Notes under the pieces: model-generated | Told to the model about the DNA's origin: nothing | Seen by the model: only the letters and a program-made list of their open reading frames with translations | The model's database searches: none | From: the human T2T-CHM13v2.0 reference genome, Homo sapiens | Assembly: GCF_009914755.1 (NCBI RefSeq) | Contig: NC_060937.1 | Reading direction: 5' to 3' (one strand) | Length of the DNA: 64,000 nucleotides | Position numbers and translations under genes: made by a program | Part shown: in pieces, positions 3,746 to 52,373 of the stretch | Layout: every line of letters begins with the position of its first letter | Numbering within the stretch: the first letter of the stretch is position 1

Positions 3746-4651
3746 GTAAATGCTAGATTTATACAATTCTTTTAGAAAATGTATGTAAGATTATATCTTT
3801 AAAAAATTATGGGTGATTTTTTGTGTTTATGTGTGTGATTCACACATGCATAACACACATATGTCTTACCTCATTTTCAGCTCCCTAAGTCATTTATGGA
3901 GCAGCTATTTTTAATATATTGACTATGAACCAAATATATTGATATTGAGAATATAAAAGCTGATGCACTCGTAATCTGGGTGGGGTGGACAGGCATACAG
4001 AAATATGAATTAACTATTTGCCATGTGCCAGGCAAATCAAACAAATGAAAATGAAAAATATATTTGAAGAAAGATTATACCATCCTAGATGTTACATTAT
4101 GTCTACAAACAATCTCTCAAATATAGTGTGTGGCAAATAATTCACAATTACCAGGCACACAAAGAGAAAGACAAAATGAATGAAAACTAGCAGAAACAAT
4201 AAGCAGTAGAAACATATCCACAGGATTATTTGGTATTAGAATTATTGGGCACATTTTTTAATAACCTGGTGACTTCTGGGTTTTTTCCATTACTAAGTAG
4301 TTTGTAATGGACTAACCTTACCAAAATCAACTATTAAAGCTGCCAAAAATATATAAAGTAGCTATTGAAGGAACTGGACAGTAACCAATGTGGGCGTGAC
4401 TTGAGTAGAACTGGACAGTAACCAATGTGGACATTACAATTCCTGAAAGAAGGGAAGCTCTGCCTTTACCTTGGCTCATGCCTGAGGGTGTTTGTGGTGT
4501 GGGAGAATGGATTACAAGTAGAATGTGGTGGTTTTAGTGGATTGAGGAGCTAGTAGTCAGACTTCAGAGCAGCCAATATACTTGGGACTTGAGGGAGAAA
4601 ATCTTGGCGAGGAGAGAATTGAAGGAAGGTGAATCAAAAAATCTGCATACA

Positions 4652-5601: not shown

Positions 5602-6498
5602 CTATGGGAGGGGCTGCCACAATGGTCTCTGAAATGTCTTTGAGGCCTTGTTCCTCTTGGCTATTTGTATTTGGATCCTTTTTAGTTATGCACATCTCTC
5701 TAGCAAGTGGTTACTCTATAGCCTGCTGGAATCCCTCTCCCAAAGCTTTTTCTTTCCATGCTGTATGGCCAGGCTGCAAATTTTCCAAACTTTTACAATC
5801 TGCTTCCCTTTCGAATATAAATTTCAACTTTGTCATTGCTTTGCTCCCACATCTGAGCATAGGCTGTTACAAGCAGCCAGGCCAAATCTTGAATGCTTTG
5901 CTGCTTAGAAATTTCTTCTATCAGATACCCCAAGTCATCACTCTGAAGTTCAGACTTCCACAGATCATTAGGACATGAATAGAATTTAGCCAAGCTCTTT
6001 GCTAAGGTGTAACATGGGTGACTTTTGCTCCAGTTTCAAATAAGTTCTTCATTTCAATCTGAGACCTTGGCAGCCTGGACTTCACTGTCAATATAAATAT
6101 CAACATTTTGGTCATGCTGTTTACCTAGTCTCTGGGAAGTTCCAAACTTTCCCTCATCATCCTGTCTTCTTCTGAGCCCTAGAAACTTCCAACCTCTGCC
6201 TGTTACCTGGTTCCAAAGTGGCTTCCACATTTTCATGTATCTTTATAGCAATGCCCTTCTCCTCAGTACCAATTTTATGTGTTAGTTTGTTCTTTCATTA
6301 CTACAAAGAAAAACCCAAGACTGAGTAATGTGTAGAGAAAAGAGGTTTAATTGGTTTACAGTTCTGAAGGCTATACAAGCGTAGTTATGGCATTCCCTTG
6401 GCTTTTGGGGAGGCCTCAGTGAGCTTTTACTCATGGCAGAAGGCAAAACAAGAGCAGGTATATCACACCACTGCAAAAGCAGAAGCAAGAGAGAGTGA

Positions 6499-9203: not shown

Positions 9204-9361
9204 GTCTCACCAAAACTGAAAAAATAGAATCAGAGATACACGTTGTACGTGGTGAAGGTTTTAAGACTGTTGCAGCAACACGATATGAAACAATAACAGC
9301 CATGACCAACCTGGCCATAGTAAACTGTCAAGTATATGGGAGAAATGCACTTAATCTGAAG
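9204..9361 (+). CDS. LRRC63: LRRC63 coding exon (158 nt, phase 1-0): GLTKTEKIESEIHVV...YGRNALNLK
   Basis: tttgtttatttAG acceptor; AAG|GTATGC donor; lies within ORF 9182..9370. Confidence 0.92.
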
Positions 9362-9989: not shown

Positions 9990-12900
9990 ACAGAGAGTTT
10001 ATTTGAAAAATTAGGCATTAAAATAATATTCACATATACTGGGAAATTTGGAAAGCCAAATGCATGGCTGGGGCTAGAAACATTCTTAGAAAAGACCTGA
10101 GAAGACCCTAAGCTTTCACATTTCGCTGACCTCTAAATGCAGTACAAGCAGGAAGTAAAGGCTAAGGTGGTTGTAAATGGCCTGGCTAAGCATTGAAGGA
10201 GTGCCTTAGCACAGAGTCGATCTGAAAAGATGAAGTTCTCTCTGTCCTCCTCCCTCTGTCTTCTGTTGTGTAAGGAAATCATGTCAAAACAATAACTGAA
10301 CACAAGTTAAAGGAGCAGAGATTTTAAAGAAAATATATGTCAAAGAATACAGACTTCACAAAAAAAGTTTAGAAAATTATTAAACAACCCAATAGCTATA
10401 GCTCATATCAAGCCTACAGAAATTCTGGAGCTGAAAAATACAATAACTGAAATGAAAACTTCACTGGAAGATTTCAATAGTAGATGTGATCAGGCAGAAT
10501 AAAAATAGAAATAGAAACCAAAACAACAAAACAAACCCCAAAGAGAGGGGAAAATGTGATTTCCAGAGTTAACACATAATAATTATTAAGATGTCCAGTT
10601 CCACTTTTTAACAAAAATTATGGAATATGCAAAAAAAAATGCTTGTTCACAGAAGAAACTAACAGAAGCTCTATTTTTTCACGTCAGATGGGTAATGTGC
10701 CAATGTCATAAAAAGGCTTGAGGGAGGCATATTTTATTCATGAGCATAAAAAGCCAATCATCATGCTTATGAACTACTAAAGGATTAGAAACTACTTATG
10801 AGGAAGCACAGACATTGGACTTACTGGAAAAAGGACCTTAAATAAACTGTCTTAAATATGTTCAAACTGCTAAATGAAACTATGGACAGAGAGCTAAAAA
10901 GAATAATGTGTGAACAAAGATTTCAATAAGGAGAATAATGTGTGAACAGAGATTTCAATAAAGAGATGGAAATGACAAAAGAAAAAACACAAAACAAAAC
11001 AATTCTGGAGCTGAAAACTACATTACCAAACTGAAAACTTCTCTAGAAAGTTTCAATACTAGAAATATTGATTAGGCAGAATAAAGAATTATAGAACTAG
11101 AAAATCGGTCAATTGAAATGATCAAGTATGAAGAACAGAAAGAAAAAAAATAAAGAAAAATGAACACAACCTAAGGGACCTCTGGAACATCATCAAGTAT
11201 ACCAACATACATTTAATGGGGTCTCTGGAGAAAAGAAGAGAGAGAGAGAGGAAAGGGCAGAAAAAGTATTTGAAAAAATAATGGCCAAAATATTCCAATT
11301 TGATTAAAAGCACAAATCTATACATCCAGGAAGCTCAATCAACTCCAAGAAGGATAATTGCCAAGAAATCCACAATGAGACATATAATCTAATTGTCAAA
11401 AGCCAAAGTCAAAGAAAGAATCTTGACAGCAGCAATCAAGAAGTGTTTTGTCATGTACAAGGGCTCTACAATGAAATTCACAGCCAGTTTGTTGCCAGAA
11501 ACTATGGAGGCAAGAAAGGAATGGGATGACATCTTTATAGTGCTGAAAGAAAAGCAATCTGTCAACCAAAAGTCTATACCCAGAAAATCTATCCTTCAAA
11601 AACAAAGGAGTAATTAAGACATTCCCCAATAAGCAAAAGCTGAGGGCATTTGTTGCCAGTACACCTGCCCTATAAGAAATGCTAGAGAGTTGTTCAGGCT
11701 ACAGTGAGAGAACATTAGACAGCAACTCAAAGTCTTAAGAAGAAATAAAGAACTCTGATGAAGGTAACTACAAAGGTAAATATAAAAGTCAGTATTATTT
11801 TGGTTATCGGTTTATATTACTTTTTCTTTCTTATATCACTTAAAAGACAAATGTGTAAACATAATTATAAATGTATATTAATGGACACACAATGTATAAA
11901 GATTTAATTTGTGACAAAACAGAAGGGAGATGAAGCCATATAGGAACAGAGATTTTGTGTGCCATTGGAGTTAATTTGGTATCAATCCAAACTACATTGT
12001 TGTAAATTTAGGATGCCAAGTGCAATCCCATAGTAACTACTACTGAAAAACAATATTAAAACATACACAAAAGGATGTGAGGAGGGAATTAATGTGGCAC
12101 ACTACAGAAAATTAATTAAATACAAAGAAGGCTGTAACGAAGGGAATGAACAAAACCAACAATGACAAAACATTCTGGAAAGGGCAAAAATGTAAAGGCA
12201 GTAAAAGTATCTGTGGTTTTCAGGGTTGTGGCAGAAGGGAAGAAAGGATGAATAAGAGAAGCACAGGTGATTTTTAGGGCAGTGATTCTGTATGATACTG
12301 TAATGGTGAATCTATTTCCTTATGCATTTTGAAAACCCATAGAATATATAACACAAGGTGTGAACTATAATGTAAACTATGGACTTGGGTTGATAATGAT
12401 GTGCCAATGTTGGTTCATTGATTGTAACAAATATACCAACATGGTGTACAAGTTGTTAATGTTGGGGGAAGGCTATAGGTACATGTGGTGAAGGGGTATG
12501 TGGAGAAGAAAAATCTCAAATTAAGAACTTAACTTTACACCTTAAAGAACTTGAAGAAAGAGAGCAAACTAAATCCAAAGCTAACAGAAGGAAGAAAACA
12601 ATAATGATAAGAGCAGAGATAAATGAAATAGAGAATAGAAAAACAGTAGAGAAAATTAATGGAAACAAAGATAGGTTATTTGTAAAGATCAATAAAATAA
12701 ACAAATCATTAGCTAGACTAAGTAAAAGAGAGAGAATGTACAAATAACTAACATTAGTCATGAAAATTGAAATATTACAACTGGCCTTACAAAAATGAAG
12801 GGGATTGTAAGAGAATACTATAAATAATTGTACACCAATGAATTATATAACCTAGATAAAATGGAAACATTTCCAGAAAAACACAAATTACCAAAACAGA

Positions 12901-19789: not shown

Positions 19790-20935
19790 GGGGGAATAGA
19801 GAATAGAAGAACAGAAACAGATCAGACAAACAGAAAACAAGTACCAAAATGGTAAACTTTAGCCTAAACACATTAGTAATTTTGTTAAAGGTAAATGGGT
19901 TAAACACCACAATAAAAAAAATAGAGATTGTCAAACTGGCTAATGAAGAACCACTCAATTATTTGCTATTTACTAGGAAGCGTACTTAAATAAAGATACT
20001 GATGGTTAAAAAGTAAAACTGGAAAAAGATAACAGTAGGCATTATAAAGCTCTTATGGCTGTATTAACTGACTAGGTAGAAAATAATACTAAAGAAAAAG
20101 AATATTACCAAGTATAGAGAAAAGTTTGAAAATGTTTAAAGGGTCAATTCATCAAGAACACAGAACAATCTAAATGTGTATAGATATAATTAGAATGCCT
20201 CAAAATTCATAAACCAAAATTTGACAGAACTAAAGTGAGAAGTAGAACAATTCACCATCATAACTAGAGATTAGACTTAATATATCTTGATCAAGAATTG
20301 ATATGTGCAGTCAAAAACAATTCAATAAAGATATAGAAGATCTGAAATAACTCCAGCGACTAACTTGACCTAATTAACATTTATAGAATGATACATCCAA
20401 CAACTGCAGAATAAACATTACTTTTTAGGTACACATAGAACAATTTCAAGATAGAACATTTGTTGGGCCATAAAACCTGTCTCAGGAAATTTTAAAAGAT
20501 TGAAATATTGTAGTTCTCGTACCACAACAGAAATAAAATAGTCACAATAAGATATCTAGAAAAGTACCAAATATTTGTGCTAAATATTAATTTAAATATT
20601 AAAAAGCACTAAGTGTTTGGAAATCAAACAACACACTAATTAAAAAATAGGTCAAGAAAGAAAACACCGAGGAAATCAGAAATATTTTGAACTGAATAAC
20701 AATGAAGACAGTACAGAAATTGGCATATTTAACAAGAAGTTTCAGATAGATGCTAGAGTAACAGATAGAAATCAGAGAAATAGAGGTGGAGATATAAAAA
20801 GGGGGTAAAGAAAATAATTAAATATAAAATAGATTCAATTATATTTCAGCACATAGCAATGTTTGCTTGTTATTGATTGAAATAATTCTGTCACACGTGT
20901 AATACTACACTTATCACATACAGAAATACTTAGTC

Positions 20936-21325
20936 TGATATGGTTTGGATCTGTGTCCTCACCAAGTCTCATGTCAAATGGTAATCTCCAGTGTTGAAGG
21001 TGGGGCCTAGTGGGAGGTGATTGGATCATGGGGATGGATTTCCACCTTGATGCTGTTCTCCTGATAGCAAGCGAGTTCTCATGAGATCTGTTAGTTTCAA
21101 AGTGTGTGGCACCTCCCCCGTCTTCCTGCTGCTCTGGCCATGTAAGACCGCTTCCCCCTTCACCTGCTATGATCGTAAGTTTCCTGAGGCCTCCCCAGAA
21201 GCTGAGCAGATGCTGCCATGCTTTCTTTACAGCCTGGAGAACCGTGAGCCAATTAAAGCTCTTTTCTTTATAAATTACCCAGTGTCAGATATTTCTTTAT
21301 AGTAGTGTGAGAACAGCCTAATACA
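20936..21325 (+). mobile_element. MST (MSTA/MSTB-like MaLR) solo LTR, sense to LRRC63
   Basis: TGATATGGTTTGG...CTAATACA termini, 390 bp, ATTAAA at 21252-21257. Confidence 0.9.
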
Positions 21326-21538
21326 CAGTGCTTCTACTTTGCTTCTATCTTTTACATACCAAAGAAATTATTATCATGACAGACTAAAAAAAAATGAATG
21401 GACGAGGAGTATAGGCTTGTTAGTATATTGTGTAAAACATTCTCATTCAAATTATGTGCTGATTTTGTTTTACTCTTGTATAAACTATTTTGTGCCTTGT
21501 TAGTGATTAACACCTTATCTCTTGTCACTTTCTTTTAG

Positions 21539-21637
21539 GGCTTTTTTATCCTAAATTGTCCAGACTTAACACCTTTGGCTTTCCAGTTGATATATCTTAA
21601 TTTATCATTTAATGATCTTCATTACTTTCCCACAGAA
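21539..21637 (+). CDS. LRRC63: LRRC63 coding exon (99 nt, phase 0-0), first LRR: GFFILNCPDLTPLAFQLIYLNLSFNDLHYFPTE
   Basis: cactttcttttAG acceptor; GAA|GTGAGT donor; LxxLxLxxNxL motif (LIYLNLSFNDL). Confidence 0.93.
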
Positions 21638-22869
21638 GTGAGTCAACTTTTATTGTTATGTACTGATATAACTTGTCGTGAATAATAATTATAATAAAAA
21701 TAGACGTCTTTTAATACCTTGAAGTTACTATAAAGTACTGTAAATGTATTTTGGATTGCATCTTTTGAATGGCTTATTTTCAGAAGCACAAAATGTACAG
21801 TACATCTTTCTTAGGAAATCCCATGATGTAATCCTCAAAGACTATGTTATAGTGAGACTCTCAAATGTGTTCTCATAATTCTATAATGTATATTAAATAT
21901 TTATTCTTCTAACTCTGAATGTAATCTAAAATAAACCTTATTTATGTGCCAATCAGAAGCTTTAAAAACAAAGTAAACATGCAGTGTTGTAATAAGTTTT
22001 AATTACCAAACGATAAAATATAATATTCTGCTTAATAAAATGTATGAAGGATAATCAGATATGAGATGAGCTAATTTAATGTCATTTCAAGTGAATGAAC
22101 CATTATGAGTGATTAGGACAAATTACGTTTTTCGTGTCTTTAGTCATTGCTTCATTGATTACTGGGTAATTGGTGGTTTTGTGAATTGATTTCCAGAGTA
22201 TTGTCTTTTAGTGAGTTTATTTTTGGCAAATGTATTTTCTTCTTTCAATCAGATGGTATTGAAAACATATATTTTCCATACTTTCTCTATAATATAATGT
22301 TTTTATTTTCAATTGGAGAAGTTATTTCTTTTCTAATACATAACACCAGTTTTATTAATTTGACTAGGAGAAATTGACAAGAATTCCCAAGGAATATAGT
22401 GATCTGAGTTCTTCACACTAATTTAACCTTTCTTCTAAGTAGATACAGATAATATTTGTGTATCTGCCAAAGAAAACTCCATCCACTAAAAAATAAATGT
22501 GTGAAGACAGGAGAGCTAGTCACTTGTAAGATATAAAGTGCTCATTGTTAAAGTGACAGAGATCAACTTGTCATTAAAATGCAGGTCTGTGTTATATAGC
22601 TATAGATAAAATATTCCAATGAAGATGGTAATATCTAAGCTTAGAGAGGCTGTTTTGGGGACAGGCTAATGAGGCCCAGTTGTTAGCATGGCATAAAGGC
22701 AATGAATAAAAGGCTGGGGACTGAGGTAAGTGGGGTGATTCAAATTATTACCGATTTCATGGAAAATTCAAAATGGTTGAATTAGGCAAATTGCAGTGTC
22801 CACTAAAATAGTTTCAGATGGGAGAAGGTAGAAGCAGAAATGTTAAATAAAGAAGATTAATATAGCAAA

Positions 22870-24700: not shown

Positions 24701-25366
24701 ATGAACTTGCTCTACTCCACCAATTTTGGACCTTTATGATGATAACAAGGTTGAATTTAATATTAAAGAGAACTAATATAAGACCTTGTTAATATTCACC
24801 AGAGAAAAATATACTAATCAAGTAAAGATCATAGATTATTTCTTTGTTTTTCTTTTTAAAATTTGTATAAATTTAAGAGGAAGATAATAGATTTAAATGG
24901 TTTACTCTATTTTTTAAATTTCACATGAAAAATCAGTGTACCTGAAATTACTGGGATGTCAGAAATAATCTGGCTTTGATCTCTAACACTTTTCTGATCA
25001 CTAAGGTTAATTCCACCTTTCTTCCTGGTTCTGCAGATACCTCCTTCCTCCCTCATTATTCCGTGATTTCCTCGTATGAAACCGTGAGCTTGATCAGAAA
25101 GGGTAACTTTCACACTTAGGAAAGCACCATTCTTGAGTCAAGGGTGTATGAGTACAGTGGTTGCACTATTTCACCATATCATACCTATTAATGCTGGTCA
25201 CTTGTTTTGAAGGTTGACCGAGGGTGTTTACTGAGTTACATGATATAGCCAATTAATGTTGCTATAATGATTCTACATTAGTTCAGAGAGTTTATAAAAG
25301 GTAACAAATAATGATTTGCATACTTTATTATTCCGCTCATGTTTGTTTCTCTTTTCTGTTCCCCAG

Positions 25367-25503
25367 ATATTATGTCTTAAAAATTTACAAATACTGAAAT
25401 TGAGAAATAATCCTATCAAAGAAATTCCTTCTGAAATTCAACAACTTGAGTTCCTTAGAATTTTCACCATTGCTTTTAATTTAATTACTGTTCTTCCAAT
25501 TGG
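25367..25503 (+). CDS. LRRC63: LRRC63 coding exon (137 nt, phase 0-2), two LRRs: ILCLKNLQILKLRNNPIKEIPSEIQQLEFLRIFTIAFNLITVLPI
   Basis: ttttctgttccccAG acceptor; GG|GTAAGG donor; two LRR motifs. Confidence 0.94.
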
Positions 25504-25811
25504 GTAAGGTTGATGGTCTGAGATTATAAACACAGAAAATAATTCATAATTTCGAAAAAGATCAATTTCCCCTTTCAAAGCAGCTAGCAGCTTTTTGGCT
25601 ATTTAGTAATTTGTATTCTATTCTAATTAGCTAATACGCTTCTTCTTATGGTGTTAAAAACAATCCTACCAGCTACATACAGAGCAATTAATATGGGTCT
25701 AGTGACTATACATTTAGAAACACGTTATCTGAGTACGGGTTAAATTAACAGGAATTATCTAAAGCAGTTCAGGTGAGAGCCTTGCACCTATCTCTTGACA
25801 GCCTTTTTGGA

Positions 25812-25985
25812 TATGGAAAGAGCACTGAATTTGGGATGAGGAAATCTAGTCCTTTGACTTTAAAGTTGATGATAATTATATATTTGATCTGGAGAAAGTA
25901 ATTTAACCATTCTTGGCCTCAATTTCCTAATCTGTAAACTAAGGAGATTGGCTTATATGATATCTAAGACCCTTTCAACTCCATA
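25812..25985 (+). mobile_element. MIR-family SINE
   Basis: ggcctcaatttcctaatctgtaaa core and MIR3-like end. Confidence 0.6.
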
Positions 25986-26489
25986 AGAATGCTGATATTT
26001 GGACATAAAAGAGATGGGTTTCTTCCCACGTATGGACTAGTAATTATTTAACTCCTAATGAAAATTTTAAACCAAAACCTTAACCAAATGTCAAAACAAG
26101 ATACTTATTCCAATCAGAGTTTAACAAATTGAATCTCTCAGTACAAAGAGAAAGGGACTCATAAATAGTTGAATAATACTTTGCAAAATAAGAGTCTTAT
26201 CTATAGTAATTAAGGAAGTGCATCCAAATTCATTTATAAAGATGTTCATTCAGTATTGTTTGTAATTAATGATCTAAAAAATTGTACATTCATAAACATT
26301 CAGTTATTTAAAAGAATAAGAAATTATATTAAAAAATTATACCATTTCTGTATAAAATGCATATACATATCACACATTACACACTACATATATAAAAAGA
26401 AAGAATAAACACTAAAGAAGTAAGAATGTTACATATGGGTATTTTATTTCTGTTTGACTCATCCGGATTTTTCCACAGTACATAAACTG

Positions 26490-26795
26490 TATTTTCCCTG
26501 CCCTGACACTATCTGCCATTTCTCTAAGGAAATCCTGTTTCCTTTTATTAGAAAATAGTGTTTAAAAGCCAAGATCTGGGTGTTGGGTATCCTCATCACC
26601 ATTAGGTTATCATTCCTTCTAGACCCTCTCATTGGAGAGAGCAAAGTAATATATGTATGTATACTAACCCATGTGTACACACATATCTGTAATTGTTTAT
26701 ATAGATACAAACACATATACAATTACATATATACACACACAGAACTATATATGTATAAATATATATGTATATATACAGCATCTAAACATGAATTC
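26490..26795 (-). mobile_element. L1MD/MC-like 3' fragment with a TA-rich tract
   Basis: ccatttctctaaggaaatcctgtttccttttattagaaaatagtg motif. Confidence 0.55.
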
Positions 26796-27479
26796 CTACT
26801 GGATAATCTATAATCATAATTATACATTTTCAATAATCATAACTACCATTTAAACAAAATAAAAATTCCTAAAGCAAGTGAAATGTGATTATAACTAAAA
26901 GGTCAACATTTTGTTCATTGTTTAGATATTGGACAAATAAGTATGAATTGTTGATTATAATCAAAAAGTTTGCAGAAGCTATTTTTAAAAACTATTAGTG
27001 TTTCTGAAATAAAGCGGCATATTTTTATTAAATAACATAGGATATGTATGCATATCAGGGGAAGAATGACAGCATATTAAAGCCAAGAATGAAAAACATA
27101 ATGGGGAAAACTTAACTTTATTGACCTCAAAGAAGACTTCAAGCAAGCTCTGACATAATAAAAATGTTTATTTGCAAAGTTTGTTCAATGAAAACTCACC
27201 AGGAGGGCACTTATACAGTGAAGAATGAAGGTGCTGAATTCTTCATATCTAAGGGTTGTTGTCAGAAATCTACCTTGCTGAGCAAAGAAGACCTCACGGA
27301 GTGTGGTGAGACTTGGAGATCAGTAACTGAATTAAATTGAGTGAAATTTAGTGAACCAAACCATTATGTAATATATTTGAGATATTCTGGCTCCATGTAA
27401 ATTCTGGAGTTTGGACATTATTACCATCACAAGCAATTGCACTGATACACTTTGAATGTTATACTTTCATTCTTGTAAT

Positions 27480-29880
27480 TAATTCAGCAGATGTTCATGA
27501 AGCATCTATTAATACTGTGTGCTCCTAGGAGCTCACCACCTAAAAGGAAGGCAGACAATTCAATACAATTGAGTAAAGTAAAATAATGGAGATGTACACA
27601 GTAAAATGTATGAGTTACATGTAACCCATTCTGAAGGGTGAGAGTTGGTTCCCTGGAAGATGTAGTATTTGATCCAAAGTTGACTGAGTGTGAATTAGGT
27701 GGATTAAACAGGAGAGACAACAAAGGATAGTTGGGCCAATGATAGGGTGGATATTTCTTCAATGAAAAGTTACAACGTATATGAAAAGAAGCAGCATATA
27801 TAACATGAGATGGGAAATACAAGCAGTTTGCTGGTTTTGAAGCTTAGAGGGCAATGCCAAGTGGTAAGAAATGGTACAGTAAGCAGGGACCAGATTATCT
27901 AGGAAGCCTTATGAGCTAAGGTAAAGAATTTATGCTGTATGCAACAAGAAACCATTACAGGTTTTCCATATGTGAGTGGTAGAGTCAAACTTATATTTTA
28001 CGTTATTCTAGTGGCAGTGTGGAGGATGGATGTGAGGGGATAAACAGAATTAAAGGTGACCAGTTGGAAGGCCATTGCAGTAGTTCAAGCAAGAGATGAA
28101 GAGAACTTGGACCAAGGCAATGGTAGTGAGCATGGAGAAGGAGGAACAAATTGTTATGAAATTGAAGTAAAACCTGCAAGATCTAGAACTGAGACATAGA
28201 GGCTATAAGGAACAGAAAAGTCAAAGTAAAAAAAAAAAGTCAAGGTAATGCCCAGATCTCTAGTTAGAGTGAAACAATTCAATCATGTAAAATGTATTTA
28301 TTGAGTATTTACTAAATACTGGGCTCTGTCCTAAGCATTGGGTTCAGATTGTTAAAGGAAAAGGGGCATGATCTTTTCCCTTATGGGGCTTAGAATCCAG
28401 AGCACGATACAGGAATTTTAATAAACACCATAATAAATATATGAATATATAAATATAAAACATTCTAAGGGCTTTGACTGAAAAGAACAATATGATGTCA
28501 GGAGAAAAAAAAATTGAATCACTAAGAAAGGTGTATCTGAGGAAATGACATTTAAGCAGAAGTTTATAAATCCAGTCCAAGAATAAGAAAAAGAATATTC
28601 ATGCAGTGGGAATAACATGGGAGGTAATGAGAGCTTGGACTCCTCAAAGGCTGACAGGAAGCCAGCATGGCTTAGAATAAAACCCAGGTGAGGTTTAGGA
28701 GTTGGATAGGGACTACATCCCATGAAGCTGTGAGGGTCAGGTGAAAATATTTATAATTTATTTAAAGTGCACTGAGAAGCCATTGCTTGTTTTTAAGCAC
28801 AAGAGTGACAATGAAGGCTGAGGAGGTTTGAATGAAGGAAAATAATTGGTTTTGTTTTAGATTAACATGTTGATTTTAGATTTCTGTTTTTCATCACAAT
28901 TCTGGACCTAGACCTATTAACCTCACAGGAGAGTTTTGTGCTGGAGATATTTCTGGAGAAACATCTGTGTTTCAAATACAGACAGATAAAGAAATTATAA
29001 AGACTGAGGAAAAGCCTCAAATTGCATAAAGAGAACCAAGAGTATCATGGAAGCCAGGGAAGTGGATTATTTTGAAAAAGAAGTATGACCAACAGTGTCA
29101 AATACAACAGAGAAGCTCAGTAAGAGTAAAGGTGAGAACAGTTTTAGTGGAATGATGGAAATAAAAGCCAGCTTGCAGTGGGTTGTGATGGAATGGGAAG
29201 AAATTGGTGATAATGAGTGTAGACCATTCTTTGTAGAGCTTTAGATGCAATGTGAGAAGAGTGATTAGACAAAAGCTATAGAGAAAGTGGGATCTTAGAA
29301 ACATTTTTATTGTTAGTTTTTTAAAGACTCGGGCATATTTACAGGATGTTGGAAAGAAACCAATAGGGAATAGATTGAAGATGTGGAAGGATGACAGATG
29401 AAGCAGAATTTCACAGGAGATGGGAGGGGAAGAAGTCATCAGCTCAGGTGGAGATTCTGGTCTTGAACAGGAGGAGTAACCATTATCTCCTAAAACTGGA
29501 GGTAGGTCCTAAAAATGAACATGTAAAATATATAGTTATATGGGTAAGAAAACAGGAAATTCATTTAGTCAACAAAGATTTATTTAGCTCCTATAATGCA
29601 TCAGTTGAGAGAGGTTACTATGAAATAACTTCAGATAATCTTTGAGAGCAAGAAGAATAATGATTGAAAAGAAGTTTTAAAGAAAGTTGTGATGATTTAG
29701 TGTTGATATTGAGAGGAACAGAAAAGAACAGAGCACAGGAAAGTGAATGTTTGAGAGATGATGCTGTGGGCTTAGCTGAGACTGGAAACCAAGGATTCAT
29801 GGTGACACGAATCTGCATTTCTGCTGATTATCTTCAGTAGCTCAGTCATTCATGTGTAAGATGGAGAAGGTAGATTTTAG
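27480..29880 (-). mobile_element. L2 fragments
   Basis: Reverse-strand L2 3' ends at about 27480 and 28275, followed by purine-rich L2 body. Confidence 0.65.
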
Positions 29881-49709: not shown

Positions 49710-50945
49710 ATTTTTGTTTGTTTTTATTTTTTTCTTTTATTTTTAGTTGGCACATAATTATACATATTTGTAACATACAGGGTGATATTTCAATACATGT
49801 ATATAGTATGTAATGATAAAATCAGCTTAGTATATCCATCACCTTATTTATCATTTCTTTGTGTTGTGAACATTTAAAATCTTCTAGCTTTTTGAAAATA
49901 CACAATAAATTATTGTTAACTATATTCACCTACAGTGCTATAGAACACTAAAACTCCTATCTACCTGTGATTTTTTTTCCATTTTTAACCTCTCCTATCC
50001 TCCTCTTCCTCTTACCCTTCCCAGCCTCTAATAACCACAATTCTACTCTCTACTTCCATGAGCTCAATTTGTTTTTAGTTTCCACATGAGTGCCGTTCTG
50101 TGCCTGACTTATTTCACTTAACATAGTGTCCTCTAGGATCATCCCTGTTGCCACAAATGACAAGATTTTATTCCTTTTATAGCTGAATAGTATTCCATTG
50201 TGTGTACATACCATATTTTCTTTATCCATTCATCTGTTGATAAACATTTAGGTCAACTCCATATCTTGGCGATTGTGAATAGAGCTGCAATAAATATGGG
50301 GGTGCAGCTGTCCCTTCAATATACTGATCTCCTTTGCTTTGGATAAATACCCAGTAATGAGATTGCTGGATAGTATGATAGCCTTATTTTTAGTTTTTTG
50401 AGAAACCGCCATCCTCCATTCTGATGGCTGTACTAATTTACATTTACCACTGAAACTGTGTAAGAGTTGCTTCTTTTCTGCGTCTTTACCAGCATTTTTT
50501 ACTTTTTGTCTTTTTTATAATAGCCATTCTCACTAGAGTAAGATATCTTATTATGGTTTTGATTTGCATTTCCCTAAATATTAGTGATGTTGAGCATTTT
50601 TTCATATACTTATTGGCCAATTTATATGTCTTGTTTTGAGAATATCTATTCTTTGATCATTTTAAAATCAGATTTTTTTTTTTTGCTGTTGAATTAAGTT
50701 CATCATATATTCATTAGTGCCTTGTCAGATGAATACTTTGCAAATATTTACTCCCATTCTGTAGGCTGTTGATTCTGTTGATTTTTCCTCTGCAGTGCAG
50801 TAGGTTTTTAATTCGAGATTAGTCCCATTTGTCTATTTTTATTTTTGTTGCTTATGCTTTTCAAGTCTTAGCCATAAAATCTTTGCCTAGGTCAATGTCC
50901 TGAAACATTTCCACTGTGTTTTCTTCCAGTGGTTTTATAGTTTGT
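49710..50945 (-). mobile_element. L1MA-like 3' portion
   Basis: Typical reverse-strand L1MA 3' UTR and ORF2 end. Confidence 0.82.
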
Positions 50946-51605
50946 TTAAATACTTAAACATATTCTTATAATCTGATGATTGTGAAATGGTATTTCTTTG
51001 CTATTTTGTTTTGTATTCCCCGATTACTAGGGAGATTGAAAAGCTTTACCTGTGTTCTCTTGACATTCATTTTTTCTTCTTCTGTGAATAGTCTATTCCT
51101 GTACTAATGTTAATGTACTAATGGATTAATATTTTTTAACTGATTTCTAACCATTTAAAAATACATTATGGACTCTAATTCCATACTAGGTTATGATAGT
51201 ACCTTTATTTTTTTAAATGATATATTTATTTTGTATCATAAAAAATAACATGTTTATTATAAAAAATTAGAAAATAAAGAAACACATTATAAAGAAACAT
51301 AAAACCCCTGTGATCACATTTCCCAAGAATAATAACTATTTTCAATTTGGGATCTATCATTAGAGTTTTTTCTTGTTATGCATATATACCTTTCTGTTTT
51401 AAAAAGCTAGGATTGTATTATACATATACCTACTTTATTGTTCAGCTTTTTTAGCGTTTAGTCTTTCACTTAATGGGTAGCACTCACCTAGCTGGTAAGC
51501 TCAATGAAGGTAAGGGCAGTATTTTATACTATTTGGAGTCTTGCATAGCACAGAGTCTTTAGTAAAAATTTATTAAATATTGACTTGCTGTTTCCTCCAT
51601 TTCAG

Positions 51606-51819
51606 CACATCCAGGTGTGAATGGTGTCATGGTCCCAAGTTTGGTGAAGGTTTTCGTGTCATCCGATCCTGTGATATTTTTGGAGCATCACAGCTTCCAG
51701 TTATGTTTTATGTCTGTTCTCCTTCTTGCTATAGAAGAATAAAGGAAAGCAGTTTTGTTTTAGATGGTAGTCCTAGTAGAAGAATAGCTCTAGATGTGGA
51801 GTTGTCAAAAGAATTATAG
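51606..51819 (+). CDS. LRRC63: LRRC63 last coding exon, Cys-rich C-terminus: (C)TSRCEWCHG...VCSPSCYRR...LSKEL*
   Basis: tttcctccatttcAG acceptor; phase matches the upstream donor (TG|C = Cys); TAG stop at 51817-51819. Confidence 0.88.
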
Positions 51820-51834
51820 TACAATGATTTATCG

Positions 51835-51836
51835 TA

Positions 51837-51881
<45 letters not shown>

Positions 51882-51912
51882 ATTTATATATATATATTCA
51901 TATATATATATA
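51835..51912. repeat. (TG)n(TA)n microsatellite in the proximal LRRC63 3' UTR
   Basis: Directly visible. Confidence 0.95.
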
Positions 51913-52110
51913 AACTTTACTGGCTTTTACTGCATATATATCTGCATATAGTAATTCATCTCTTTGAAAGTAGAGGTTCTGTTTGGAAGACATAAGTGTC
52001 TTCTCATACGAATTATCTTTGTAATTCTAGCTCCTTATGAAAGTTTGTGATTGTTTGGGAATTGTTGCAGAATAATTACTCAAGGAGGATTAGTAAAGCC
52101 TTTAGATTTG

Positions 52111-52373
52111 AATAAAGCTCTAGAAAATTTCTTTCAGAGCCTGTTTACTATAAAAGGAAAAATGTTGGAATCCTTTGCAAAATGGGTTATGTCTTACAAC
52201 TGGTCTTTTCATGCATCCATACTAAGTGATGAGATAGCATTGCAGAGTCATCAGTGGGGTATGTGCTGCATAGAGCTTCAATGTCACACATCCAAGTGCT
52301 CAATGCTTGTGCATTTCTGTGGAAATCTGACCAGCACCTTCCATCTCAATTGTAGGTTGTTTTGGGGAATAAA
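52111..52373 (+). terminator. Candidate LRRC63 polyadenylation signals (AATAAA at 52111-52116 and 52368-52373)
   Basis: Canonical hexamers 0.3-0.55 kb after the stop; the second is followed by a GT/T-rich tract (tttgtttgttt). Which one is used cannot be seen from sequence. Confidence 0.45.

What the first reader, a model, noticed from the sequence alone, without database searches (positions are those of the whole stretch)
20936..21637. Sense MST LTR provides ATG and a splice donor exactly in frame with the first LRR exon (predicted 259-aa LTR-driven isoform)
Seen: the LTR contains gctATG ATC|GTAAGT (ATG 21169-21171, G at -3, donor at 21175). Splicing over a 364-nt intron to the phase-0 acceptor at 21539 gives M-I-GFFILNCPD..., open to the normal stop. 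The product would be 259 aa holding only the LRRs and the C-terminal module, without the low-complexity N-terminus. The LTR also carries TGATTGGATCA (21018-21028), a DUX4-like site, and a start-stop ATGTAA at 21140. Established: MaLR LTRs can act as germline/early-embryo promoters and first exons (e.g. the MT LTR-driven oocyte Dicer isoform in mouse), and DUX4 activates MST/THE1 LTRs. Inference: a primate-specific short isoform. Caveats: this ATG/donor is a common MaLR feature, so the frame match is roughly a 1-in-3 chance, and the TATA-like position is degenerate (TTTCAAAG).
Basis: partly seen in the sequence, partly recalled or inferred. Interest (0 to 1): 0.72.

Follow-up and report, generated by a model that had tools for sequence, protein, structure and literature searches.

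The report
Old MST retroviral LTR in LRRC63
An end-piece of a retrovirus-like element about 50 million years old sits in an intron of the sperm gene LRRC63; its start codon and splice signal do line up with the next exon, but thousands of sister copies carry the same signals and nothing available shows that this copy is used.

Summary
Every sequence detail in the finding is correct. A 390-392-nt MaLR LTR of MST type lies at 20936-21325/7, in the same direction as LRRC63. It has ATG at 21169, GTAAGT at 21175 and a 364-nt gap to the phase-0 exon at 21539. By arithmetic the product would be 2+257 = 259 aa.

None of this exceeds chance. The ATG-3 nt-donor block is inherited. Its 23-mer, with Y/R allowed at two places, occurs 5,738 times in the genome, in MST-like and THE1-like LTRs alike. 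Phase-0 junctions make up 47% of chr13 coding introns.

The DUX4-like site is the ancestral MST form. It misses the printed consensus at a core A, and printed ChIP data show 3.0% of MSTA copies bound against 30-33% for THE1B/C. The TATA-like box has a C where 26 of 37 and 27 of 29 relatives have A. None of the 22 RefSeq LRRC63 transcripts has an exon in the LTR.

The element is a real solo LTR of the ERVL-MaLR family. It is MST type, probably MSTA, and about 45-60 My old (simian). It is most likely inert. An LTR-driven isoform is unsupported but not excluded, because I had no expression data.

The parts
20936..21327 (+). Solo LTR of an ERVL-MaLR element, MST type (probably MSTA). It is sense to LRRC63, in the intron between exons 9204-9361 and 21539-21637. 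The likely true end is 21325 (..ACA).
   Evidence: End-to-end matches at 78-82% identity to 39 other scored genomic copies, out of 11,199 first-look candidates. Aligns end to end with the LTR 24.7 kb upstream of RHOBTB3, which print calls MSTA, and only in pieces with two THE1B copies. The flanks match no flank of 29 other copies, so it is solo.
20931..20935 (+). Left candidate target-site duplication, TAGTC. Its partner CAGTG lies at 21326-21330, and 3 of 5 bases agree.
   Evidence: Read. The RHOBTB3-upstream copy shows a 5-nt duplication in the same register. The evidence here is weak.
21018..21028 (.). DUX4-like site TGATTGGATCA, the ancestral MST form of the place where THE1B copies carry the printed MaLR DUX4 motif.
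   Evidence: Identical in 13 of 29 and 12 of 37 copies. G at the place of 21019 in 36 of 37 and at 21024 in 32 of 37. Matches the printed consensus TAAT[T/C][T/C]AATCA at 8 of 11 positions on the + strand and 10 of 11 on the - strand (PMC4730607).
21095..21102 (+). TATA-like place TTTCAAAG, with an uncommon C at 21098.
   Evidence: A stands at the place of 21098 in 27 of 29 and 26 of 37 copies, and C in 4 of 37. The RHOBTB3-upstream copy also has A.
21140..21145 (+). Start-stop ATGTAA, a family feature, upstream of the main ATG. Its GTAAGA is also donor-like.
   Evidence: Identical in 13 of 29 and 13 of 37 copies.
21169..21174 (+). ATG ATC, the proposed two-codon coding start, with G at -3.
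   Evidence: ATG is kept at this place in 19 of 29 and 28 of 37 copies.
21175..21180 (+). Donor-like GTAAGT, an inherited feature of late MST and early THE1 LTRs.
   Evidence: GT is kept in 13 of 37 copies, GTAAGT in 11 of 37, and the whole ATG+3 nt+GTRAG block in 8 of 37. The 23-mer pattern occurs at 5,738 places.
21251..21257 (+). LTR poly(A) signal-like AATTAAA, 76 nt downstream of the donor-like site.
   Evidence: Identical in 26 of 37 copies. Column shares are 25-29 of 29.
21175..21538 (+). No tool or annotation predicts it.
   Evidence: Arithmetic. No RefSeq transcript has this junction.
21539..21637 (+). LRRC63 coding exon, phase 0, 33 codons, with its native acceptor (pyrimidine-rich tract then AG).
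   Evidence: Used by 21 of 22 RefSeq transcripts, always after exon 9204-9361.

Best explanation
This is an ordinary, decayed solo LTR of the non-autonomous ERVL-MaLR group. It is MST type, most likely MSTA. It inserted in sense orientation into a pre-existing LRRC63 intron in a stem-simian ancestor about 45-60 My ago.

The ATG, the donor-like GTAAGT three bases later, the ATGTAA, the DUX4-like site and the AATTAAA are all features this copy inherited from its source element. They lie in the LTR's presumed R region, downstream of the TATA-like place and upstream of the poly(A) signal.

Their frame match with the next exon is coincidence, with p about 0.47 given that the block ends on a codon boundary. 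The copy most likely does nothing for LRRC63. The canonical pre-mRNA reads through it and it is removed with the intron.

What is shown: the identity, orientation, solo state and inherited nature of the motifs; the frame; and the absence from RefSeq models. What is inferred: inactivity as a promoter or first exon.
For: Family identity:
- The LTR aligns end to end with the print-named MSTA upstream of RHOBTB3. It shares a 9-nt and a 33-column segment that two THE1B copies lack, and it lacks their 10-nt insert.

Inherited motifs:
- 23-mer pattern at 5,738 places. Of 20 places sampled, 10 were MST-like and 10 THE1-like.
- In 37 copies sampled without regard to likeness: ATG 28, GT 13, whole block 8, DUX-like site identical 12, ATGTAA 13, AATTAAA 26.

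Chance:
- Phase-0 share 47.1%.
- Of the first 100 places of the 23-mer pattern, 89 keep the donor G, and 10 of those lie in sense inside a protein-coding gene. That implies roughly 570 such copies genome-wide and some 200-300 expected frame matches (my extrapolation).

No sign of use:
- 0 of 22 RefSeq transcripts touch the LTR.
- None of the 7 chr13 places of the exact 23-mer coincides with an annotated exon.
- 0 papers hold LRRC63 with LTR or with DUX4.

Weak promoter signals:
- Uncommon C in the TATA-like box. The MSTA copy reported active in oocytes keeps A.
- The DUX4-like site misses a core A. A site with a substituted A in the first TAAT was inactive, and half-sites were inactive (PMC4730607).
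- MSTA: 3.0% bound by DUX4, 1 bound region activated (PMC3836709).

Age:
- Pairwise K2P 0.241 within the MST sample, 0.222 from the window copy to it, and 0.190 within a THE1 sample.
Against: - I had no RNA-seq, CAGE, long-read or ChIP data, so inactivity is inferred from annotation and base rates.
- RefSeq models can miss rare oocyte or embryo isoforms.
- This copy is among the minority (8 of 37) that keep ATG+3 nt+GTRAG, and it sits only 364 nt upstream of a strong native acceptor.
- MSTA LTRs do start spliced transcripts in human oocytes (RHOBTB3, GLIS3; PMC6908575).
- LRRC63 is testis-elevated (PMC6356071), and DUX4-bound repeats are reported active in testis (PMC3836709).
- The minus-strand reading of the DUX-like site is only one base from the consensus.
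Confidence: 0.8

Rival explanations
1. The LTR acts as a germline or early-embryo promoter and first exon. Transcription starts about 25-35 nt after the TATA-like place, translation starts at ATG 21169, and the donor at 21175 splices to exon 21539. The product is a 259-aa LRRC63 that lacks the low-complexity N-terminal 330 residues.
For: Sense orientation, ATG with G at -3, all six intron positions of the donor match the consensus (recalled), phase-0 acceptor, open frame. MSTA LTRs are documented oocyte promoters that splice into genes (PMC6908575). MaLRs are enriched among DUX4-activated promoters and enhancers (PMC3836709; PMC8990217). LRRC63 is testis-elevated.
Against: - No RefSeq model (0 of 22) and no paper.
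- Uncommon C in the TATA-like box and a non-consensus DUX-like site.
- MST base rates for DUX4 binding are 3-5.6%, and for activation 0.2-0.8% of bound regions.
- The good-context ATGTAA start-stop lies 24 nt upstream of the ATG and would intercept scanning ribosomes (inference).
- The LTR's own AATTAAA lies 76 nt after the donor.
- The print-named active MSTA upstream of RHOBTB3 has no GT at the homologous place. So this donor is not shown to be the one MSTA-initiated transcripts use.
- The frame match is a 0.47 event.
Confidence: 0.06
2. The LTR is occasionally exonised within transcripts from the normal LRRC63 promoter. An acceptor-like site in the LTR (pyrimidine run then AG at 21066-21067) pairs with the donor at 21175. 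This would give a frame-breaking cassette exon of about 107 nt, or use of the LTR poly(A) signal, that is, splicing noise or a poison exon.
For: The acceptor-like and donor-like sites can be read. Print reports that sense-oriented MaLRs are depleted inside genes, and attributes the depletion to splice and poly(A) signals (PMC1794541). My sample shows the same bias: 10 sense against 21 antisense.
Against: None of the 13 non-coding and 9 coding RefSeq models, several of which have odd exons elsewhere in the gene, includes any LTR base. I computed no splice-site scores.
Confidence: 0.08
3. The LTR serves as a DUX4-responsive or other enhancer-like element rather than as a promoter.
For: DUX4-activated enhancer-like regions are enriched in ERVL-MaLR (PMC8990217). 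The DUX-like site is retained.
Against: Same site and base-rate arguments as above. There are no functional-element rows in the RefSeq table for this window.
Confidence: 0.04

Closest known systems
MSTA LTR about 25 kb upstream of RHOBTB3, which starts an oocyte transcript that splices into the gene (Bogutz et al. 2019, PMC6908575; passages read)
   Same: Same LTR type. The window LTR aligns end to end with the LTR found 24.7 kb upstream of RHOBTB3: 77% by blastn, K2P 0.173. Both are sense to the gene and share the same DUX-like site letters.
   Different: That copy lies upstream of the whole gene, keeps A in the TATA-like box and lacks GT at the homologous donor place. Its activity is documented, while the window copy's is not. 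My identification of that copy as the paper's MSTA rests on its position only.
THE1B LTRs used as promoters (CSF1R in Hodgkin lymphoma, PMC6558280; THE1B-HEY1 under DUX4, PMC3836709)
   Same: Same MaLR lineage. The ATG-ATT-GT arrangement persists in THE1B-type copies as ATGATT followed by GTGAGG (4,237 places).
   Different: The THE1B copies lack 9-nt and 33-column segments, carry a 10-nt insert, and have the printed DUX4-active form of the site (TAATTGAATCA in the CSF1R copy). THE1B is bound by DUX4 ten times more often than MSTA: 29.6% against 3.0%.
MT-C LTR-driven oocyte Dicer isoform in mouse (Flemr et al. 2013; recalled, not read here)
   Same: An intronic sense MaLR LTR that supplies a promoter and first exon and yields an N-terminally truncated protein.
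   Different: That isoform is experimentally established and abundant. Here there is no transcript evidence at all.

Membership tests
ERVL-MaLR LTR, MST group | Dispersed high-copy LTR with homology along its whole length | tested here: met
   11,199 first-look candidates. The 39 other scored copies match at 78-82% over about 1-390 of 392 nt. 37 of 40 copies picked by a junction 17-mer cover at least 85% of it.
ERVL-MaLR LTR, MST group | Closer to a print-named MST copy than to print-named THE1 copies | tested here: met
   Full-length alignment with the RHOBTB3-upstream MSTA. There are only 84-167-nt pieces with the CRH and CSF1R THE1B copies, and the segment differences appear in alignment A1. 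Only one named MST locus and two named THE1B loci were used.
ERVL-MaLR LTR, MST group | LTR ends TG..CA and a 5-nt target-site duplication | tested here: inconclusive
   Starts TG and ends ACA. The candidate duplication agrees at 3 of 5 bases.
ERVL-MaLR LTR, MST group | Subfamily (MSTA, MSTB, MSTB1 and so on) by match to library consensus | not testable with these tools
MSTA is favoured by three things: closeness to the named copy, an age only 1.1-1.27 times that of the THE1 sample, and abundance (MSTA 19,782 against MSTB 8,562, MSTB1 5,073; PMC4419796).
ERVL-MaLR LTR, MST group | Restricted to primates, or to simians for MSTA/MSTB | not testable with these tools
   No other primate genome was available. 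Taken from print (PMC10735291).
LTR-derived alternative promoter and first exon of a host gene | Sense LTR upstream of a coding exon, with an in-frame ATG and donor | tested here: met
LTR-derived alternative promoter and first exon of a host gene | Transcript model or reads that start in the LTR and splice to the exon | tested here: not met
   0 of 22 RefSeq LRRC63 transcripts. Read-level data were not available, so this holds for annotation only.
DUX4-bound MaLR element | Match to the consensus TAAT[T/C][T/C]AATCA or the MaLR form TAATTGAATCA (both as printed in PMC4730607) | tested here: not met
   The + strand differs from the MaLR form at positions 2 and 7. The - strand reading differs from the consensus at position 2.
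DUX4-bound MaLR element | DUX4 ChIP occupancy at the locus | not testable with these tools
   The peak lists are in supplements, which are closed. The family base rate is MSTA 3.0%.

The most novel reading that the evidence does not exclude
A simian-specific MSTA LTR has been recruited as a germline or cleavage-stage promoter and first exon. It would produce a 259-aa LRRC63 made only of the LRRs and the Cys-rich C-terminal module, a human counterpart of the mouse oocyte Dicer case, in a sperm protein of unknown function.
Probability: 0.05. Interest if true: 0.45.

Novelty: already known. Interest (0 to 1): 0.15.

Why it matters
As it stands it matters little. It is one of tens of thousands of MST LTRs, and its frame match is expected at a few hundred loci by chance.

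The useful result is a calibration for this kind of finding. The ATG-3 nt-donor block is a lineage-wide MST/THE1 feature, so an in-frame LTR start codon and donor is not by itself a signal. The MST form of the DUX4 site is the weak, ancestral form of the site that THE1 copies carry in its active form.

If junction reads were found, it would add a simian-specific truncated isoform of a poorly known sperm protein.

Tried and rejected
- RefSeq soft-masking covers only 21167-21328 of the LTR and gives no family name, so it was of no use for naming.
- A first dating from the 29 best blast hits (K2P 0.203-0.220) was set aside, because those hits are biased towards the closest copies.
- A second sample of 20 copies was picked by the ATG-donor 23-mer. 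It turned out to be a mix of 10 MST-like and 10 THE1-like copies. Its MAFFT distances (0.34-0.35) were not used for dating.
- The final dating used 40 copies picked at even steps from the first 99 places of an MST-specific junction 17-mer, of which 37 were kept and 3 dropped for under 85% coverage. It also used 20 copies from a THE1 junction 21-mer, of which 19 were kept and 1 dropped. All of these are from chr1. CpG sites were not removed, and differences between source copies are included.
- Hierarchical clustering found no clear subgroups: 36+1 at k=2. However, copies that keep GT are closer to each other (0.208) than the rest are (0.246).
- Pfam by single exon gave only sub-threshold LRR hits for exons 25367 and 36922, and none for exon 21539 or the C-terminal exon. 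NCBIfam gave only generic LRR noise.
- PDB sequence search of the last exon gave one weak hit, to LRRC58 (E 0.052).
- Naming the subfamily from print failed. The diagnostic features in PMC10735291 are in figures and supplements that I could not see.
- The supplements of PMC3836709 (DUX4 peaks, LTR-gene fusions) and PMC6908575 (oocyte LTR transcripts) may list or exclude this locus, and were closed.
- The clock of 2.2e-9 per site per year is recalled, not taken from a call.

Full report
**Observation**

I read 20700-21800. Every quoted letter is at the stated place:
- the LTR starts with TGAT at 20936;
- TGATTGGATCA is at 21018-21028;
- TTTCAAAG is at 21095-21102;
- ATGTAA is at 21140-21145;
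- ATG is at 21169-21171 with G at -3, followed by ATC and then GTAAGT at 21175-21180.

The distance to the exon at 21539 is 364 nt. In the select mRNA NM_001282460.2 the coding parts before that exon sum to 990 nt, so the exon begins in phase 0. The annotated coding exons from 21539 to the stop hold 774 nt, which is 257 aa plus the stop. Two LTR codons plus 257 gives 259 aa. I did this by arithmetic and did not join LTR letters to the exon. The first in-frame stop upstream of the ATG is at 21082. Three further GTRAG sites lie in the LTR, at 21142, 21244 and 21307.

**What the element is**

The 392 nt find 11,199 first-look candidates in the reference. The 39 other scored copies match end to end at 78-82%. 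The 500-nt flanks of the window copy match none of the flanks of 29 other copies, while 15 of those flanks match each other over at least 150 nt. So this is a solo LTR with no internal part beside it. The ends are TG..ACA, and the 5-nt duplication is only 3 of 5.

To name it I used copies that print names:
- Bogutz et al. (PMC6908575, passages) describe an MSTA about 25 kb upstream of RHOBTB3.
- Zuo (PMC10204343, passages) cites a THE1B upstream of CRH.
- PMC6558280 (passages) refers to the CSF1R THE1B.

In the 40 kb upstream of RHOBTB3 the window LTR finds a full-length sense copy 24.7 kb upstream, plus a 99% twin 7 kb further on. Near CRH and CSF1R it finds only 84-167-nt pieces.

The four-way alignment shows that the window copy and the MSTA copy share a 9-nt stretch (the GTAAGTTTC place) and a 33-column stretch that both THE1B copies lack. 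The two also lack a 10-nt insert that the THE1B copies carry. The window copy holds CCTGAGG at 21183-21189, which I recall to be the MstII site the family is named after.

The family is therefore ERVL-MaLR, MST type. Naming needed no inner genes.

The subfamily could not be fixed without a library. MSTA is the best guess, for three reasons:
- the K2P to the named copy is 0.173, lower than the 0.222 median to the sample;
- its age is only slightly above that of the THE1 sample;
- MSTA is the commonest MST (19,782 copies against MSTB 8,562, MSTD 7,665, MSTB1 5,073 and MSTC 3,169; PMC4419796 table).

**Age**

I took 40 copies at even steps from the first 99 genomic places of an MST-specific junction 17-mer (1,911 places). 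Of these, 37 cover at least 85% of the window LTR. The results:
- their 666 pairwise K2P distances have a median of 0.241 (IQR 0.217-0.265);
- the window copy lies at 0.222 from them, and 5 of 37 copies have a smaller mean distance to the sample than the window copy has;
- a control of 19 of 20 copies picked by a THE1 junction 21-mer (4,237 places) gives 0.190.

The 13 sampled copies that keep GT at the donor place are closer to one another (0.208), and the window copy sits at 0.209 from them.

Half of these values is 0.10-0.12 per lineage for the MST group and 0.095 for the THE1 group. With a recalled clock of 2.2e-9 per site per year, that is about 47-55 My for MST and 43 My for THE1. The THE1 value fits print:
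- 'more than 40 million years' (PMC10204343);
- origin 55 Mya (PMC1794541 Table 1, which gives 75 Mya for MST).

Zuo 2023 (PMC10735291; Introduction and Results read) finds all MST and THE1 members only in primates. It places MSTB, MSTA and THE1 only in simians, after the tarsier split (under 70 My), in the order MSTB, MSTA, THE1D, C, B, A.

I therefore date the insertion to about 45-60 My ago, in a stem simian. 'Primate-specific' holds and can be narrowed. I could not check orthologous loci.

**Is the ATG-donor arrangement special?**

It is not.
- The 23-mer from the ATG through the donor occurs in the exact window form at 104 places. With Y/R allowed at the two bases around the junction it occurs at 5,738 places (reversed control 0). 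Of the first 100 places, 89 keep the donor G.
- Twenty of those places, taken at even steps, split into 10 MST-like and 10 THE1-like LTRs. So the block belongs to the late-MST and early-THE1 lineage as a whole.
- THE1B-type copies keep ATGATT followed by GTGAGG after a 9-nt loss.
- In the 37 copies sampled without regard to the donor, ATG is kept in 28, GT in 13, GTAAGT in 11 and the whole ATG+3 nt+GTRAG in 8. The window copy is thus one of about a fifth that keep the block.
- The C at 21174 is unusual: T stands there in 35 of 37 copies.
- A variant with GGAA at the donor place is rarer, at 471 places.

Because the block ends on a codon boundary, it needs a phase-0 acceptor. On chr13, 1,439 of 3,057 coding-coding introns (47.1%) are phase 0. 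Of the 89 donor-keeping places, 10 lie in sense inside a protein-coding gene, 21 in antisense and 58 outside. This shows the antisense bias that PMC1794541 reports for MaLRs. By my extrapolation, roughly 570 copies share this setting and 200-300 should match the frame of the next coding exon by chance.

**Promoter signals**

At the TATA-like place the window has C at 21098, where 27 of 29 close copies and 26 of 37 sampled copies have A. The RHOBTB3-upstream MSTA also has A. The start-stop ATGTAA and the AATTAAA are family features, identical in 13 of 37 and 26 of 37 copies.

If transcription starts some 25-35 nt after the TATA-like place (my inference), two things follow:
- ATGTAA would be the first ATG, in a good context (G at -3) and only 24 nt before the main ATG;
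- the LTR's own poly(A) signal would follow the donor by 76 nt.

Both work against an efficient protein-coding isoform. This step is inference.

**The DUX4-like site**

Zhang et al. (PMC4730607, passages) print the following:
- the ChIP consensus is TAAT[T/C][T/C]AATCA;
- the MaLR form is TAATTGAATCA, which gave 2.4-fold activation against 8-fold for the best site;
- a ZSCAN4 site with the A of the first TAAT substituted was inactive;
- half-sites were inactive.

In alignment A1 the CSF1R THE1B copy has exactly the MaLR form at this place. The window and the MSTA copy have TGATTGGATCA, with G for A at positions 2 and 7. Read on the other strand, the site is one base from the consensus, and the mismatch again falls on the first A of the first TAAT. 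The G's are the family state: 36 of 37 and 32 of 37 copies.

This fits Young et al. (PMC3836709, section 6 Table 1). DUX4 peaks cover 32.9% of THE1C and 29.6% of THE1B, but only 5.6% of MSTD, 4.0% of MSTC and 3.0% of MSTA (588 of 19,782). Just 1 bound MSTA region was activated. So the site is homologous to the real DUX4 site of THE1, but in its weak ancestral form.

**Evidence of use**

None of the 22 RefSeq LRRC63 transcripts (9 mRNAs and 13 non-coding models) has an exon in 20936-21327. The 21 that contain exon 21539 all reach it from exon 9204-9361. None of the 7 chr13 places of the exact 23-mer meets an annotated exon.

Of 32 papers that mention LRRC63, none of the 25 listed concerns an LTR or an isoform. 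No paper holds LRRC63 with LTR or with DUX4. LRRC63 is called testis-elevated and was seen in a sperm proteome (PMC6356071, one passage).

- MSTA LTRs do start spliced oocyte transcripts at RHOBTB3 (human and macaque) and GLIS3 (human only).
- MaLRs are enriched among DUX4-activated promoters and enhancer-like regions in hESC (PMC8990217, passages).

However, the RHOBTB3-upstream copy reads GGAAAT at the donor place. The ATG-adjacent donor is therefore not shown to be the one such transcripts use.

**The predicted product**

The 257 host residues hold the LRRs. Pfam LRR_4, LRR_8 and LRR_1 match exons 25367 and 36922 below the cut-offs, and the repeat pattern is visible by eye from LIYLNLSFNDL in exon 21539. 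They also hold a Cys-rich C-terminal exon with no Pfam match and a weak likeness to the C-terminus of LRRC58 (PDB 9t7v_B, E 0.052). The 330 residues that would be lost gave no Pfam match in the two exons tested.

**Verdict**

The element is real: a solo MST (probably MSTA) LTR about 45-60 My old. The frame match is a coincidence of inherited family motifs. The isoform has no support in annotation or print, and several sequence details weigh against it. It remains possible at low probability, because I could not see expression data or the supplements of PMC3836709 and PMC6908575.

My confidence is 0.80 for the inert LTR. For the rivals it is 0.06 for the LTR-driven isoform, 0.08 for sporadic exonisation and 0.04 for an enhancer role.

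Noticed in passing
L034:4723-5571 and L032:1794-2649 (chr5, 24.7 and 18 kb upstream of RHOBTB3): The LTR that print calls the RHOBTB3 oocyte-promoter MSTA is present twice in T2T-CHM13, as an 858-nt local duplication 7 kb apart. The segment is 97.3% identical and the LTRs 99%. The paper speaks of one element.
   Followed up: partly
genome-wide; window 21169-21191: The ATG-ATT-GT arrangement survives the 9-nt loss that separates THE1B-type from MST-type LTRs: ATGATT then GTGAGG, at 4,237 places. A donor-like site right after this ATG has therefore been kept through the MST to THE1 succession, which hints at a role in the element's own RNA.
   Followed up: partly
window 51607-51816: The Cys-rich C-terminal exon of LRRC63 has no Pfam or NCBIfam match. 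It has one weak PDB hit, to residues 301-340 of LRRC58 (9t7v_B, E 0.052), so the two may share an unnamed C-terminal module.
   Followed up: partly
window 24954-25225 and 25037-29131: The 7SK pseudogene RN7SKP5 lies just upstream of coding exon 25367. It is partly inside a long Gnomon non-coding exon of LRRC63, in XR_008488745.1 (and the given table).
   Followed up: no
window 10682-10785 (-): An annotated U13-like snoRNA lies antisense in the same LRRC63 intron as the LTR (given table).
   Followed up: no
window 49717-51728 (-) against 51606-52131 (+): The first listed exon of lncRNA LOC105370194 overlaps the last coding exon of LRRC63 on the opposite strand.
   Followed up: no
window 21167-21328: RefSeq's soft-mask covers only the 3' 160 nt of the 392-nt LTR. 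The 5' 230 nt, including the DUX-like and TATA-like places, are unmasked.
   Followed up: no
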